64,000 nucleotides of DNA, taken from NCBI GenBank assembly GCA_013166775.1, contig JABLTJ010000001.1:160001-224000 (forward strand), read 5' to 3'. Within the stretch, counting starts at the first letter, position 1. Every line of letters begins with the position of its first letter. A program made the position numbers and the translations under genes. This DNA comes from Promethearchaeati archaeon. GTDB taxonomy: Archaea; Asgardarchaeota; Heimdallarchaeia; Heimdallarchaeales; Heimdallarchaeaceae. This document shows positions 2,784 to 8,913 of this stretch, piece after piece. The notes under the pieces are model-generated. The model had not been told where the DNA came from, ran no database searches, and was given only the letters and a program-made list of their open reading frames with translations.

Positions 2784-3440
2784 ATGATAGTTCCAGATAG
2801 CGTCTTAGCAAAAGAATATAGTCTTGTGATGGAAAGAGCTTATGCATTTGAACCTATCGCAGGGGATTTAACTAAATGGAGAGGTTTTGTTCCCGCAATT
2901 TCAGATGAAGGTGAAATTTTAGTAGAAATTGAAATCTATCTAACAGATTCATTTCCAGAAACTCCACCACAAGTGAAAATTATTACCCCTATCACACATC
3001 CAAATTTAACACATGATAATTTTTTAGAAATGAGAATGCTTGCTAGATGGAGATCAAGTTATCACCTTTTTCAAGTGATTGTGGAAACAATTAGGCTATT
3101 TTCGAAAGTTCCTGCAAAAATGATTAAGACAGACGCAGAAACGATTGATCCTCAGAATCAACTTACACCCTTGACAAAACAAAAGGAACAATTGACAATT
3201 ATTCTCGAAGAAAGGAAGAGAGAATTAAACGAAATATCATCAAAAAAACCAAGCCAAGTAAGCAACAAAATATTACAACAAGAGAAACTAAAACATATTG
3301 ACGATGAAATACTGAATGTAGAAAGTGAAATCTTTGCAATAGAACAACAATTTGAAGATTATGAAATTTCTAGTATAGAATTCGCTAAGAAATTCTATAC
3401 TCTTAAGAAAAGATTATTTCTTTTAGAAGCTAAATCATAG
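2784..3440 (+). CDS. UEV (catalytically dead E2) + coiled coil + Vps23/Vps37 steadiness-box domain; ESCRT-I-like protein
   Basis: FPETPPQV..ITPITHPN E2 fold with no Cys in the whole protein; C-terminal ESEIFAIEQQFEDYEISSIEFAKKFYTLKKRLF resembles the Vps37/Vps23 head helices. Confidence 0.85.
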   Translation: MIVPDSVLAKEYSLVMERAYAFEPIAGDLTKWRGFVPAISDEGEILVEIEIYLTDSFPETPPQVKIITPITHPNLTHDNFLEMRMLARWRSSYHLFQVIVETIRLFSKVPAKMIKTDAETIDPQNQLTPLTKQKEQLTIILEERKRELNEISSKKPSQVSNKILQQEKLKHIDDEILNVESEIFAIEQQFEDYEISSIEFAKKFYTLKKRLFLLEAKS

Positions 3441-3446
3441 TTCGAT

Positions 3447-3740
3447 TCATGCAGCACTACTTTTTTCGCTTTTGGTTTTCTTTTCCGTTTTCATTAGTCT
3501 CTTAGTAATGATATACCAAACAAATAACCAAATCCCTACAAACAACAAACCCAATCCTACTTTAATAGCAGCAAGTAAGAAATTTATACCTGGTTTGGTG
3601 GGAACTTCAGGAATAATAACAATAAACGCATTAATAATAAAACAGATTCCTATAAATGAAGCAAATACAAATGCTTCAAGTCCAATGACTTTTGATATTC
3701 TACTTACGATTTTATTATATCTCATTATATCACCAACCAT
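3447..3740 (-). CDS. Small two-TM membrane protein
   Basis: Two hydrophobic segments and a basic tail; overlaps the stop of the upstream GPT gene. Confidence 0.65.
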   Translation of the reverse strand: MVGDIMRYNKIVSRISKVIGLEAFVFASFIGICFIINAFIVIIPEVPTKPGINFLLAAIKVGLGLLFVGIWLFVWYIITKRLMKTEKKTKSEKSSAA

Positions 3741-4753
3741 ATCAGAACCGCTGTTATTAAAGCGAATATCCCACTAATAAAGGTGAGAATACTGAAGCTT
3801 TTAACAACATCTTTCTCATGTAGAGGTTCTTTTTGAATAACCAATCCAACAAGTGTGATAGGAGCTTTCGAATCTCCTGTGGATTGTATTTTCCAATCAT
3901 CAGTCATTTTTGTAGGCCTTGCCATGTCTCTTCTTTCCATCAACCCTCTAACACTACTAATTATACCGAAAGAATTCATAATAAAAGGTATCATAGCAAT
4001 AATCACAACTACTTCAAGCTGTCCAAGTACTGCTATAACTCCTAGTGATGCACCAACTGCTAAACTCCCTGTATCGCCAGCAAAAACTTTGGCTGGATAA
4101 CGGTTGAAAAACCAGAACGCAATTAAAGTTGCTATCATCATTAAGATGAAAACATAAGTCAAATCAAGATTTTGGATTCCCCCTCTAAAAATTATCATAT
4201 TGGCAAAGAATACTGCTACTAGTACTAAAATAGTAGCTAATGCCATTGAGCCATTGAATACATCTAACATATTAACTGCATTTGAAGGAACAGCTATGAT
4301 GAAAGGTAATAGTACATAGTATACTATTGTCAATCTTGTTTTTCCTACAAATGGTAAGATGGGTTCTGGTGAAAACATTCCTGATGCAATAATTGGTATA
4401 GCTGCTAATAGAAGCAATAACGGTTTTAGTATTGCACTAAGTTTAATTATATCATCAATGATTCCTATGATTCCTGCTATCATTACTGTTATACAGAATA
4501 TTCCTATTTTGAGTCTATCTGCGTTATTATCAACCAACAGGATTCCTACTATGGATGTAAGAATTATGGATAAGAGAATTATTATTCCACCCATTTCTGC
4601 TACTTTCGGTTTACTCTTTTTATGAATATCAATTCCAAAAATCCCTTTCTTTAGCATAAACCTTATGTGAAAAGGTAATCCAATGAATGTGAGAATTAAA
4701 GGCATAAAAAATGTTACAACATAGATTGCAATAGGAGGAATTGAAATTGCCAT
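3725..4753 (-). CDS. aglH: UDP-GlcNAc:dolichyl-phosphate GlcNAc-1-phosphotransferase (GPT/Alg7/AglH, glycosyltransferase family 4)
   Basis: GIDIHK, EMGG, GIIDD, NAVNMLDVFNG, FNRYPAKVFAGDTG motifs; multiple TM helices. Confidence 0.9.
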   Translation of the reverse strand: MAISIPPIAIYVVTFFMPLILTFIGLPFHIRFMLKKGIFGIDIHKKSKPKVAEMGGIIILLSIILTSIVGILLVDNNADRLKIGIFCITVMIAGIIGIIDDIIKLSAILKPLLLLLAAIPIIASGMFSPEPILPFVGKTRLTIVYYVLLPFIIAVPSNAVNMLDVFNGSMALATILVLVAVFFANMIIFRGGIQNLDLTYVFILMMIATLIAFWFFNRYPAKVFAGDTGSLAVGASLGVIAVLGQLEVVVIIAMIPFIMNSFGIISSVRGLMERRDMARPTKMTDDWKIQSTGDSKAPITLVGLVIQKEPLHEKDVVKSFSILTFISGIFALITAVLIWLVI

Positions 4754-4801
4754 TAAGCGAATCTTTGAGAACTATATTTGAAATTTCCGATTGTTGGAAC
4801 T

Positions 4802-5659
4802 TTAAAGATCTTCTAGTTTCTTCAAAGCTTTAAGAAGTTCTGCTTTATCACCGCTAACCGCTTCACCAAAAATCTCCGCTGATTTTCCTTCTTCTGGTAC
4901 TGTGGGTTCTTCTTCAGTCTTAAGAACGGAAGGTTGAATTTCTGCAGCATCTGTGGTTACTTCTTTCTTTGGAGGCATAGGTATGCTTCCACTTACCTGT
5001 TTAGAAATGGGGCTTACGTCTCTTTCAACCGCTTCTGTGACTTGTGTTGCAGGTTTAGGCGCAGGTGGTGGTGGTGCTGGGACTTCAGTAGGGGTGACAG
5101 TAGGTGCAACCTTAGGAAGTTCTACTTCCTCAATTTTCTGTGTTGGAGGTGCTGAAGGAATTTCTGCGCTTGGAACTGGAATAGATTCAGGTATAGGTGG
5201 TACGGGAATTGATGTTATTTCCTTCTCAGGAGCTTCTGTAGGAATTTCAAATTCAGCAACTGCTTCTGCTTCTTCGATTGCTGGAACAGGTTCCGGTGCT
5301 ACCGACGGAGCTTCTGCAGCTATATCCTTTATTGCTTGAACATCTGTAGGTTCCACTACAGTTTCATCCTGAACACTTTTTGTTGCTTCTATTAGCAGTA
5401 TTCGTTCATTTAAGCTATCCATTCTTTTTGTTAATTGTTCTATTTTGTTAACTAAACCTGTTGCATCTGCTGGTACAGCTTGAGTAGATGTACTTTGTCC
5501 AGCTTGAGCTTCTAGTATGTCCAATCTTTCCTTTAATGATACTACGACATTATCGTAATCTTTGAAACGATCTTGAACTGCTGAAACAATGCTTTCAACC
5601 ATGTTCTTTACCATGTTAATGGATCCAACAAGTGATTTGAATTCATCTTTCTTTGACAT
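4802..5659 (-). CDS. Coiled-coil + Pro/Glu-rich low-complexity protein with PSAPP motif and amphipathic C-terminal helix
   Basis: Likely start MSKKDEF (ATG 5659); N-terminal heptads; PAPPPPAP and IPSAPPT; ends DKAELLKALKKLEDL. Confidence 0.75.
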   Translation of the reverse strand: MSKKDEFKSLVGSINMVKNMVESIVSAVQDRFKDYDNVVVSLKERLDILEAQAGQSTSTQAVPADATGLVNKIEQLTKRMDSLNERILLIEATKSVQDETVVEPTDVQAIKDIAAEAPSVAPEPVPAIEEAEAVAEFEIPTEAPEKEITSIPVPPIPESIPVPSAEIPSAPPTQKIEEVELPKVAPTVTPTEVPAPPPPAPKPATQVTEAVERDVSPISKQVSGSIPMPPKKEVTTDAAEIQPSVLKTEEEPTVPEEGKSAEIFGEAVSGDKAELLKALKKLEDL

Positions 5660-7855: not shown

Positions 7856-8913
7856 AATTTATGGCAGGAGACGGAACAGTTCAACTAATAGATGAAAAAG
7901 GAAAGAGACTTGATGGTCGAAATTTCGATGAACTCAGACCAATAAGTATCAAAATAGGCGTATTAGAAAATGCGGATGGTTCTGCAGAAATCCGCATGGG
8001 AAATAATATTATTATCGCTGCAGTTTATGGACCAAGGGAACTTCATCCAAAACACCGCGCTCTTCCTGATAGAGCATTAATTCAGTGTTTTTATAGGATG
8101 TCAACTTTCTCTGTTAATGATAGAAAAAGCCCTGCTCCATCTAGAAGAGAAAAAGAAATATCAATGATTATCAGTAACGCACTCACTTCCGTAGTGTTTA
8201 CAGAAAAATATCCCAGAACAACAATTGATGTCTACCTACAAGTGTTACAGGCAGATGGAGGCACCAGGTGTGCAAGTTTAACTGCTGCATCTGTGGCACT
8301 TGCTGATGCAGGGATCCCAATGAGGGGATTGATTGCATCCGTAGCTGGTGGTTTAATTAATGATAAGGTTGTACTTGATCTTTATGATATAGAAGATCAA
8401 AAGGGTTCTGGGGATGTACCACTTGGTTATTGCCCAGTTTTAGATGAGATATCACTAGTCCAATTGGATGGTGTATTTACTTTAGAACAATTTGAAGAAT
8501 GTTTAAAACTTTCAATCAAAGGTGCTACTGAAATTTACGATATTCAAAAGAAAGCACTACAAGACAAATACGCGGCAATACGAGCTGATGTATCTGTAGA
8601 TGCAAAGGAGACAAAAAAAGAAGTTAAACCCAAAGAGGAACCTAAAGCTGAAATCAAGGAAGAATCCCAAGCGGTTAAAGAAGAACCCAAGGAAGCAATT
8701 AAAGTGGCTCCTAAACCTGAAATCAAAGCTAAACCCAAAGAGGAACCTAAAACTGAAGTCAAAGAAGAACCCCAAGCGGTTAAAGAAGAACCCAAGGAAG
8801 CAGTTAAAGTAGCTCCTAAACCTGAAATCAAAGCTAAACCCAAAGAAGAACCTAAAGCTGAAGTCAAGGAAGAACCCCAACCTGAGATTAAAGACGAAAA
8901 GGAGGCTAAATAG
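7852..8913 (+). CDS. rrp41: Exosome catalytic subunit Rrp41 with long K/E/P-rich repeat tail
   Basis: RLDGR..DELRP, AAVYGPRE, ADGGTRCA phosphate-binding motif; ~110-aa C-terminal extension. Confidence 0.96.
   Translation: MKFMAGDGTVQLIDEKGKRLDGRNFDELRPISIKIGVLENADGSAEIRMGNNIIIAAVYGPRELHPKHRALPDRALIQCFYRMSTFSVNDRKSPAPSRREKEISMIISNALTSVVFTEKYPRTTIDVYLQVLQADGGTRCASLTAASVALADAGIPMRGLIASVAGGLINDKVVLDLYDIEDQKGSGDVPLGYCPVLDEISLVQLDGVFTLEQFEECLKLSIKGATEIYDIQKKALQDKYAAIRADVSVDAKETKKEVKPKEEPKAEIKEESQAVKEEPKEAIKVAPKPEIKAKPKEEPKTEVKEEPQAVKEEPKEAVKVAPKPEIKAKPKEEPKAEVKEEPQPEIKDEKEAK
8626..8880 (+). repeat. Tandem 105-bp coding repeat, about 2.4 copies (KPKEEPKAEIKEESQAVKEEPKEAIKVAPKPEIKA)
   Basis: Units start at 8626, 8731 and 8836 with aaacccaaagaRgaacctaaa; few substitutions between copies. 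Confidence 0.95.

What the first reader, a model, noticed from the sequence alone, without database searches (positions are those of the whole stretch)
2784..5659. Candidate ESCRT adaptor pair: PSAPP-motif protein near the UEV gene
Seen: the 4802-5659 protein has an N-terminal coiled coil, a long Pro/Glu-rich linker with an exact PSAPP (DNA 5144-5158), a MIM2-like ELPKVAP, PAPPPPAP, and a terminal helix. It lies ~1.4 kb from the UEV gene. Known: P(S/T)AP is the ligand of the TSG101 UEV domain (Hrs, viral late domains). Inference: a PSAP-dependent ESCRT-0-like recruiter; I am not aware of one described in archaea. Caveat: PSAP can arise by chance in a Pro-rich region.
Basis: partly seen in the sequence, partly recalled or inferred. 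Interest (0 to 1): 0.75.

Follow-up and report, generated by a model that had tools for sequence, protein, structure and literature searches.

The report
Coiled-coil tether protein beside UEV gene
The PSAPP motif is real but occurs at chance level in a proline-rich spacer; the protein belongs to an undescribed Heimdall-archaeal family (helical hairpin, disordered spacer, invariant end helix) whose gene stays near a ubiquitin-E2-variant gene.

Summary
Observation confirmed. Window 4802-5659(-) encodes a 285-aa protein ("P2") with an N-terminal helical hairpin, a ~160-aa Pro/Glu-rich disordered linker holding PSAPP (DNA 5144-5158), and a terminal helix. It lies 1.36 kb from a Cys-less E2/UEV gene (2784-3440).

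Interpretation not supported as written.
- P[ST]AP is not conserved. It occurs in 24/51 same-genus homologues at four or more non-homologous sites, and in 8/19 diverse family members.
- Dipeptide-preserving shuffles give 5.6/19 (P=0.13), so this is chance level.
- The neighbouring UEV is the "UEV_X" paralogue. It is not the ESCRT-I UEV-Vps23-Vps28 fusion, which sits on another contig. ESCRT-III/Vps4 lie ~108 kb away.
- P2 has no ESCRT-0 modules.

What is conserved:
- the hairpin;
- an over-represented IPxP motif (18/19, P<0.001);
- a nearly invariant C-terminal helix, ELLxALKxLExI/L-COOH.

New result: P2-like genes occur in at least three families of the order. They stay 0.7-2.6 kb from UEV_X in unrelated gene contexts (RLI/GT4/SBDS versus rpS12/rpoA''/EF-2).

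Best reading: P2 is a flexible tether or adaptor working with UEV_X, and PSAPP is incidental. Binding is untested.

First readers of this scan flagged orthologues in six other genomes. No completed follow-up on them was shown; one follow-up overlapping my stretch was withheld.

The parts
4802..5659 (-). P2: 285-aa protein made of a helical hairpin, a Pro-rich disordered linker and a C-terminal helix (probable orthologue of HeimAB125_11730)
   Evidence: ORF and translation. 57 homologues, all Heimdall-type. AF2 model. No Pfam or NCBIfam family.
5360..5659 (-). N-terminal antiparallel helical hairpin (aa 1-100)
   Evidence: AF2 helices 2-55 and 64-100, pLDDT about 90. Conserved block in alignments A1, A2 and A4. 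Only generic coiled-coil matches in PDB and Pfam.
4880..5359 (-). Hypervariable Pro/Glu/Thr/Ala-rich disordered linker (aa 101-260; 21% Pro)
   Evidence: pLDDT <50. Length and sequence vary, and other genera have tandem PxP repeats here. IPxP is over-represented.
5144..5158 (-). PSAPP (aa 168-172), the flagged motif
   Evidence: Present. Kept only in the clade of 79% identity or more. Chance-level across the family.
4970..5026 (-). Family-f1 conserved linear motif ERDVSPISK-x5-IPxPP (aa 212-230)
   Evidence: Invariant or near-invariant columns in A1. Retained in distant f1 genera. Not recognisable in f3.
4805..4849 (-). C-terminal amphipathic helix DKAELLKALKKLEDL-COOH (aa 271-285)
   Evidence: Invariant in genus g1. 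Consensus E-L-[LM]-x-A-L-[KR]-x-[LI]-[ED]-x-[IL]-COOH across f1 and f3. The only tail of this kind in the genome. AF2 helix with pLDDT about 80.
2784..3440 (+). UEV_X: Cys-less UBC/UEV domain (aa 1-110) plus three C-terminal helices (aa 123-217)
   Evidence: Pfam UQ_con 2e-10; UEV PF05743 at 15.3 bits, below cut-off. Glu at the Cys position. AF2 pLDDT 86. Top Foldseek hits are canonical E2s. Mod_r/Vps37 hits in 12/30 family members.
3725..4753 (-). GT4 (AglH/MraY-type polyprenyl-phosphate sugar-1-P transferase), immediately downstream of P2
   Evidence: Pfam Glycos_transf_4 1.7e-28. Same position in all f1 genera examined.
3447..3740 (-). 97-aa small membrane protein downstream of GT4
   Evidence: ORF. 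Conserved in f1 loci. No Pfam family.

Best explanation
P2 is a member of an undescribed protein family restricted to one order of Heimdallarchaeia. Three features define the family: (i) an N-terminal antiparallel helical hairpin, probably an oligomerisation or assembly unit; (ii) a fast-evolving Pro-rich disordered spacer carrying recurrent IPxP motifs; (iii) a nearly invariant amphipathic helix at the extreme C-terminus. I read it as a flexible tether or adaptor. The hairpin would anchor it in a complex, the spacer would give reach, and the terminal helix (plus, in family f1, the ERDVSPISK..IPxPP motif) would dock a conserved partner. The most likely partner system is the neighbouring UEV_X protein, a Cys-less E2 fold with a Vps37/Vps23-like helical tail, because the two genes have stayed together through genome rearrangements. 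The PSAPP tetrapeptide is a compositional by-product of the spacer, not the conserved interaction determinant. Shown: the architecture, the conservation pattern, the gene linkage and the chance-level P[ST]AP frequency. Inferred: tether function and partnership with UEV_X.
For: Architecture: AF2 model; alignments A1, A2 and A4. Family range: 30/30 genomes of family f1 with the profile. Only about 10 clusters at 50% identity among 1.84 billion proteins. P2-like proteins in f2, f3 and f4 found by neighbourhood inspection and confirmed by a reciprocal hit (f3 query hits f1 P2 loci, E 4e-8) and by N-terminal and C-terminal HMMs. C-terminal helix: near-invariant across f1 and f3 while the N-terminal domain falls to 11-16% identity; unique in the genome. 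Linkage to UEV_X: same contig, about 1.4-2 kb apart, in essentially all f1 genomes. Also 0.7-2.6 kb apart in G025 (f2) and in G026, G028, G033, G037 and G039 (f3), where the flanks are rpS12, rpoA'', EF-2 and a beta-CASP gene instead of RLI, GT4 and SBDS. Motifs: IPxP occurs 35 times in 18/19 diverse members, against 15.9 in 10.7 for dipeptide-preserving shuffles (P<0.001). P[ST]AP occurs 11 times in 8/19, against 7.8 in 5.6 (P=0.13).
Against: No binding or complex prediction could be run. The genes are never adjacent: one or two unrelated genes always intervene. Orientation differs (convergent in f1, divergent in f2 and f3), so co-transcription is excluded. In f3 both genes also sit near rpS12, so part of the linkage may be inherited position. 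In G030 and G035 they are 7-11 kb apart. In f4 (G031) they are on different contigs. UEV_X-like genes in families f5-f7 have no P2-like neighbour within 8 kb. P2 is more tightly coupled to its downstream genes: GT4 is 48 nt downstream in f1, and a PAP2 gene is 49 nt downstream in f3 genus g3.
Confidence: 0.55

Rival explanations
1. First reader's model. P2 is an ESCRT-0-like recruiter whose P(S/T)AP motif inserts into the groove of the neighbouring UEV domain, as Hrs and viral late domains do with TSG101.
For: PSAPP is present. P[ST]AP is rare genome-wide. It occurs in about 40-47% of family members and is 2.8-5 times above mono-residue shuffles. Several instances share the context E-[IVM]-P-[ST]-A-P. 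The gene pair is conserved. 26/30 UEV_X family members match Pfam UEV PF05743. A preprint (10.1101/2023.07.25.550441) reports a PxxP-dependent UEV/Vps23-domain interaction in a Helarchaeial UEV-Vps23.
Against: The motif is not positionally conserved and sister sequences carry PEAP. It is absent in G042-G044 and in 8/10 f3 members, including proteins that are 34-39% proline. It is not enriched over dipeptide-preserving shuffles (P=0.13). Other Pro tetrapeptides are equally or more enriched. P2 has no ubiquitin-, lipid- or clathrin-binding modules. The UEV is UEV_X, not the ESCRT-I UEV. Foldseek ranks canonical E2s first, not TSG101.
Confidence: 0.1
2. The C-terminal helix is a MIM1-type ligand of the Vps4 MIT domain, possibly assisted by a MIM2-like Pro motif. 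P2 would then be a Vps4 adaptor or substrate.
For: Leu at positions 0, +4 and +7 at the extreme C-terminus, as in MIM1. The genome's own ESCRT-III tails read DLExE[LI]QxL[KR][KR] with the same spacing and have LPxV motifs upstream. IPxP motifs are conserved.
Against: Positions +8/+9 are acidic or Gly in P2 but basic in both ESCRT-III tails of this genome. There is no Snf7 core. ESCRT-III and Vps4 lie about 108 kb away. ELPKVAP is confined to the closest clade.
Confidence: 0.1
3. P2 is a cytoskeletal regulator. It would combine an oligomerising coiled coil, profilin-binding proline tracts and a WH2-like actin-binding terminal helix.
For: The layout resembles VASP or WASP-type factors. One Heimdall profilin binds a polyproline peptide weakly (PMC8410842). 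The tail contains LL..L and LKKL.
Against: Runs of three or more prolines are not conserved; the spacer is of the PxP/IPxP type. The LL-to-LKK spacing is 3 residues, with no linker between helix and LKK, which does not fit my recollection of the WH2 layout. No actin-related neighbours were seen.
Confidence: 0.07
4. P2 has no functional tie to UEV_X and the proximity is inherited gene order. It would instead act with the membrane enzymes encoded directly downstream (GT4/AglH in f1, PAP2 phosphatase in f3 genus g3), for example by organising lipid-carrier glycosylation enzymes at the membrane.
For: GT4 starts 48 nt after the P2 stop on the same strand and holds that place in all f1 genera. In G026 and G028 a PAP2 gene (2e-20) starts 49 nt after the P2-like gene. 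Both enzyme classes act on polyprenyl phosphates. UEV_X is on the other strand.
Against: PAP2 and GT4 are not found next to P2 in the other f3 genera, where rpS12 or L11 are the neighbours. UEV_X is the only neighbour shared by f1, f2 and f3. P2 has no membrane segment.
Confidence: 0.18

Closest known systems
Hrs/Vps27 (ESCRT-0) and viral late-domain P(S/T)AP ligands of the TSG101/Vps23 UEV domain
   Same: P2 contains a literal PSAP in a disordered Pro-rich region and is encoded near a UEV-type protein.
   Different: The motif is not conserved and is at chance frequency. P2 has no VHS, FYVE, UIM, GAT or clathrin box. The neighbouring UEV is a separate paralogue outside the ESCRT cluster.
CdvA of Thermoproteota (helical hairpin similar to the steadiness box, disordered region, C-terminal ESCRT-III-binding peptide; PMC10936438)
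   Same: Same general layout: helical hairpin, then a disordered spacer, then a short conserved C-terminal docking element.
   Different: P2 has no PRC barrel. Its tail is helical rather than a strand-forming peptide. Asgard ESCRT-III lacks the winged helix that CdvA binds. No sequence similarity was detected.
ESCRT-I stalk and headpiece subunits (Vps37/Mod(r), Mvb12, Vps23 core)
   Same: These also use helical hairpins as assembly units. The partner candidate UEV_X shows Mod_r (Vps37) matches in 12/30 members. There is a weak local hhalign match between P2 helix 1 and the UEV_X terminal hairpin (a Q-x-x-F-x-D-Y-[DE] motif; probability 15%).
   Different: P2 itself shows no significant similarity to Mod_r, Vps23_core or Vps28. 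The C-terminal docking helix and IPxP spacer have no ESCRT-I counterpart.
UEV_X group of Asgard UEV proteins (preprint 10.1101/2023.07.25.550441; HeimAB125_11700 in PMC9192718)
   Same: P0001 matches the description: a Cys-less E2-like domain with a helical tail of about 100 aa, about 218 aa in total, in Heimdallarchaeia. The locus-tag spacing to HeimAB125_11730 (named for P2 homologue P0039) matches the gene order here.
   Different: Neither paper describes a partner, a neighbouring P2-type gene or a function. The orthology to those accessions is inferred, not checked by sequence.

Membership tests
ESCRT-0-type P(S/T)AP recruiter (Hrs/Vps27-like) | P(S/T)AP motif in a disordered region | tested here: met
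   PSAPP at aa 168-172, in a region with pLDDT <50.
ESCRT-0-type P(S/T)AP recruiter (Hrs/Vps27-like) | Motif maintained by selection among orthologues | tested here: not met
   24/51 genus members at four or more different sites; 8/19 diverse members against 5.6 expected from dipeptide shuffles, P=0.13.
ESCRT-0-type P(S/T)AP recruiter (Hrs/Vps27-like) | Cargo- or membrane-binding modules (VHS, FYVE, UIM, GAT) | tested here: not met
   No Pfam or NCBIfam domain in P2. The N-terminal part gives only generic coiled-coil matches.
ESCRT-0-type P(S/T)AP recruiter (Hrs/Vps27-like) | Direct binding of the motif to a UEV domain | not testable with these tools
TSG101/Vps23-type UEV protein (for the neighbour, P0001) | UBC fold lacking the catalytic cysteine | tested here: met
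   UQ_con 2e-10. Glu aligned to the UbcH7 active-site position. AF2 pLDDT 86 with E2 structures as top Foldseek hits.
TSG101/Vps23-type UEV protein (for the neighbour, P0001) | Match to the Pfam UEV model PF05743 above its cut-off | tested here: inconclusive
   P0001 scores 15.3 bits against a cut-off of 27. 26/30 family members match at E<=1, best 1.4e-10.
TSG101/Vps23-type UEV protein (for the neighbour, P0001) | P(S/T)AP-binding groove residues | not testable with these tools
   No residue-level alignment to TSG101 could be obtained. TSG101 was not among the 48 listed Foldseek hits.
TSG101/Vps23-type UEV protein (for the neighbour, P0001) | Stalk plus steadiness-box hairpin | tested here: inconclusive
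   Three helices at 123-217. Mod_r (Vps37) hits in 12/30 members, best 1.7e-5, but none for P0001 itself.
TSG101/Vps23-type UEV protein (for the neighbour, P0001) | Encoded with other ESCRT or ubiquitin genes | tested here: not met
   The E1-like, UEV-Vps23-Vps28 and Vps22-like genes are on contig C27. ESCRT-III (two genes) and Vps4 are at C1:273.8-276.4 kb.
MIM1 (Vps4 MIT-interacting motif) | C-terminal helix with Leu at 0, +4 and +7 | tested here: met
   L275, L279 and L282. Conserved across the family.
MIM1 (Vps4 MIT-interacting motif) | Basic residues after the third Leu, as in this genome's ESCRT-III tails | tested here: not met
   P2 has E-D/G at these positions, whereas the two ESCRT-III tails have [KR][KR]K.
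CdvA | N-terminal PRC barrel | tested here: not met
   P2 starts directly with the helical hairpin, and no Pfam hit was found.

The most novel reading that the evidence does not exclude
UEV_X and P2 form a second ESCRT-I-like module specific to Heimdallarchaeales. In this reading the P2 hairpin assembles with the Vps37/Vps23-like helices of UEV_X, and a proline motif of the spacer (the conserved IPxP/IPxPP, with P[ST]AP as an occasional variant) occupies the UEV groove. That would be an archaeal forerunner of late-domain-type UEV-proline recognition, with the invariant C-terminal helix recruiting a downstream factor.
Probability: 0.1. Interest if true: 0.8.

Novelty: new variant of a known kind. 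Interest (0 to 1): 0.42.

Why it matters
ESCRT-0-type upstream recruiters have not been identified in Asgard archaea (PMC10936438), so a PSAP-UEV pair would have been a notable eukaryote-like trait. The data argue against that specific claim. They do define an uncharacterised, lineage-restricted protein family that is genomically tied to the uncharacterised UEV_X paralogue. This gives experimenters working on Asgard ubiquitin-ESCRT biology a concrete candidate partner and two short conserved peptides to test: IPxPP and ELLxALKxLExI-COOH. It also shows that literal eukaryotic short motifs found in Pro-rich archaeal linkers need a dipeptide-aware null model before they are interpreted.

Tried and rejected
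- Pfam and NCBIfam on P2 gave nothing.
- The ESM-Atlas feature search gave only scores of 0.79 or below, which is uninformative.
- VIA-align against 48k PDB chains with the P2 model returned only generic long helices (Z at most 6.5).
- An N-terminal profile searched against 1.84 billion proteins found about 10 true family clusters; the remaining hits were multi-stretch coiled-coil noise.
- The f1 full-length profile missed the f3 relatives (0/16). These were found only by inspecting UEV_X neighbourhoods.
- A mono-residue shuffle suggested 2.8-5-fold P[ST]AP enrichment. I rejected this as evidence because relatedness and dipeptide bias explain it.
- hhalign of the P2 hairpin against UEV_X gave probability 15%, which is not significant.
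- A search for other proteins in the genome carrying the P2-type tail found none.
- A search for P2-like genes within 8 kb of UEV homologues in families f5-f7 found none. The weak N-terminal HMM hits there are a different family, coiled coil plus winged helix.
- The WH2 and MIM1 readings of the tail were considered and down-weighted on spacing and charge.
- The TSG101 groove comparison was not possible with the tools available.
Full report
**What is there**

The window is G000:C1:160001-224000 of a Heimdallarchaeaceae-type Asgard MAG of 3.85 Mb in 115 contigs (source names of homologues).

The flagged ORF 4802-5659(-) encodes a 285-aa protein, here called P2 (P0002).
- AlphaFold2 with a 27-sequence alignment gives a confident helical hairpin (helices 2-55 and 64-100). 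Residues 101-260 are disordered and residues 271-284 form a terminal helix.
- ATG 5659 is the probable start. Conservation begins there, and a TATA-like element lies 33-41 nt upstream.

The neighbour 2784-3440(+) (P0001) is a 218-aa protein.
- It has a UBC fold (Pfam UQ_con 2e-10).
- The catalytic Cys position is Glu.
- Three helices follow the UBC fold (AF2 pLDDT 86).

**Which UEV is it?**

G000 has three E2-like loci.
- The ESCRT-I UEV-Vps23-Vps28 fusion is at C27:8750-10159. It sits beside an E1-like gene and a Vps22-like gene.
- The AB_125 orthologue of that fusion was shown to bind ubiquitin (PMC9192718).
- The two ESCRT-III genes and Vps4 are at C1:273.8-276.4 kb, about 108 kb from P2.

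P0001 corresponds to the untested Cys-less HeimAB125_11700 of that paper. This is inferred from locus-tag spacing: P2 homologue P0039 is named HeimAB125_11730, and the gene order matches. P0001 also fits the 'UEV_X' group mentioned in preprint 10.1101/2023.07.25.550441.
- Foldseek ranks canonical E2s first.
- The Pfam UEV model is matched below its cut-off by P0001, but by 26/30 family members at E<=1.
- 12/30 members match Mod_r (Vps37), best E 1.7e-5.

UEV_X is therefore plausibly an ESCRT-I-like paralogue, but it lies outside the ESCRT clusters.

**Does P[ST]AP persist?**

It does not.
- Among 57 homologues, P[ST]AP occurs in about half.
- Alignment A1 places these occurrences at different sites:
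  - AE[IV]PSAPP, only in the clade of 79% identity or more;
  - E[IV]P[ST]AP next to KPATQVT in another clade;
  - EMP[ST]AP early in the linker of a third clade, where sister sequences have PEAP;
  - DP[ST]APEEGK in a fourth.
- Other genera of the family have tandem PxP-repeat linkers. G042, G043 and G044 have no P[ST]AP. In genus g13, PSAP overlaps a different conserved motif.
- In family f3 only 2 of 10 members carry it, although some of these proteins are 34-39% proline.
- Mono-residue shuffles suggest 2.8-5-fold enrichment. P[ST]PA, APP[ST], [ST]PAP and P[ST]IP are as enriched or more so.
- On 19 diverse representatives with dipeptide-preserving shuffles, P[ST]AP is at chance: 11 occurrences in 8 sequences, against 7.8 in 5.6 expected (P=0.13).
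- IPxP is genuinely over-represented: 35 occurrences in 18/19 sequences, against 15.9 in 10.7 expected (P<0.001).

**What is conserved**

- The N-terminal hairpin.
- In family f1, the motif ERDVSPISK-x5-IPxPP (aa 212-230).
- A C-terminal helix whose consensus across f1 and f3 is E-L-[LM]-x-A-L-[KR]-x-[LI]-[ED]-x-[IL]-COOH. Over the same range the N-terminal domain falls to 11-16% identity.

No other ORF in the genome ends this way. The family is small: about 10 clusters at 50% identity among 1.84 billion proteins.

**Gene linkage**

Within family f1 (five genera, 30/30 genomes with the profile) the whole block is syntenic: TrmO-RLI-UEV_X-TM97-GT4-P2-(NTPase)-SBDS-Rrp4. On its own this says little about the pair.

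Inspecting UEV_X neighbourhoods in other families revealed P2-like proteins with the same architecture and tail.
- They were confirmed by a reciprocal search: an f3 query hits f1 P2 loci at E 4e-8.
- They were also confirmed by HMMs of the N-terminal and C-terminal pieces.
- Distances to UEV_X are 1.7 kb in G025 (f2) and 0.7-2.6 kb in G026, G028, G033, G037 and G039 (f3).
- Distances are 7 kb in G035 and 11 kb in G030.
- The genes are on separate short contigs in G032, G036 and G038, and unlinked in f4 (G031).
- The flanks there are rpS12, rpoA'', EF-2 and a beta-CASP nuclease. None of the f1 neighbours is present.

UEV_X is thus the only neighbour shared by all contexts. This supports a functional tie, although the genes are never adjacent or co-oriented. 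No P2-like gene was found within 8 kb of UEV homologues in families f5-f7.

**Mechanism**

I favour a tether or adaptor model. The hairpin would mediate assembly, the IPxP-bearing spacer would give reach, and the invariant C-terminal helix would dock a partner, with UEV_X as the likely partner system (confidence 0.55).

Rivals:
- The PSAP-UEV model (0.10).
- A MIM1/Vps4 ligand (0.10). The Leu spacing fits, but the charges after the third Leu are opposite to this genome's own ESCRT-III tails.
- A profilin/actin regulator (0.07; PMC8410842). Polyproline runs and my recollection of WH2 spacing do not fit.
- A function with the downstream polyprenyl-phosphate enzymes, GT4 in f1 and PAP2 in f3 genus g3 (0.18).

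None of these could be tested physically.

**Novelty**

I found no description of the P2 family or of a UEV_X partner in the Asgard ESCRT papers read. ESCRT-0 orthologues are reported as not identifiable in Asgard archaea (PMC10936438). First readers of this scan flagged orthologues in six other genomes with the same PTAP/PSAP, MIM1 and WH2 ideas, with no follow-up result shown for them; one follow-up report overlapping my stretch was withheld.

**Verdict**

The motif-based claim is ordinary, a chance-level occurrence. The conserved gene pair and the invariant tail are moderately interesting leads.

Noticed in passing
L029:7260-7778 (G028) and L030:11349-11864 (G026); compare window 3725-4753: In f3 genus g3 the gene 49 nt downstream of the P2-like gene is a PAP2-superfamily membrane phosphatase (2e-20). 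In f1 the gene 48 nt downstream is a GT4 polyprenyl-phosphate sugar-1-P transferase. Both enzyme classes act on lipid-carrier phosphates.
   Followed up: partly
L061:12906-13559, L062:12770-13390, L063:3081-3671 (family f7): A conserved protein of about 200 aa, coiled coil plus a C-terminal winged-helix-like domain, lies about 4.2 kb from a UEV-Vps23-like gene in three f7 genomes. It is not a P2 relative, and there was only a weak coiled-coil HMM hit.
   Followed up: no
G000:C27:5468-11247: The ESCRT-I/II-ubiquitin cluster comprises an E1-like gene, the 469-aa UEV-Vps23-Vps28 fusion, a 104-aa ORF and a 244-aa protein that I read as Vps22-like (by inspection, not checked with Pfam). Next to it lies a 522-aa ORF that looks like a TnpB-type nuclease (by inspection).
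   Followed up: no
L027:622-1152 (G025), L029:7713-8357 (G028), L031:15479-15892 (G030): A 176-214-aa protein with a weak Arf-family match (3.6e-4) and an incomplete P-loop recurs near P2-like or UEV_X genes in f2 and f3.
   Followed up: no
window 5540-5570 (P2 aa 29-36) and 3330-3360 (P0001 aa 186-194): P2 helix 1 and the last hairpin of UEV_X share a local Q-x-x-F-x-D-Y-[DE] motif that is also seen in f3 orthologues. hhalign gives probability 15%, which is not significant. It could hint at related hairpins.
   Followed up: partly
window 8544-8913: The Rrp41 gene ends in a K/E/P-rich tail encoded by near-identical tandem repeats.
   Followed up: no
L032 and L033 (family f4 UEV_X, G031 and G027): The f4 UEV_X orthologues have lost the HPN motif (DGINV... 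in its place). In the same family the P2-like gene is unlinked (G031 C216) or was not found.
   Followed up: no
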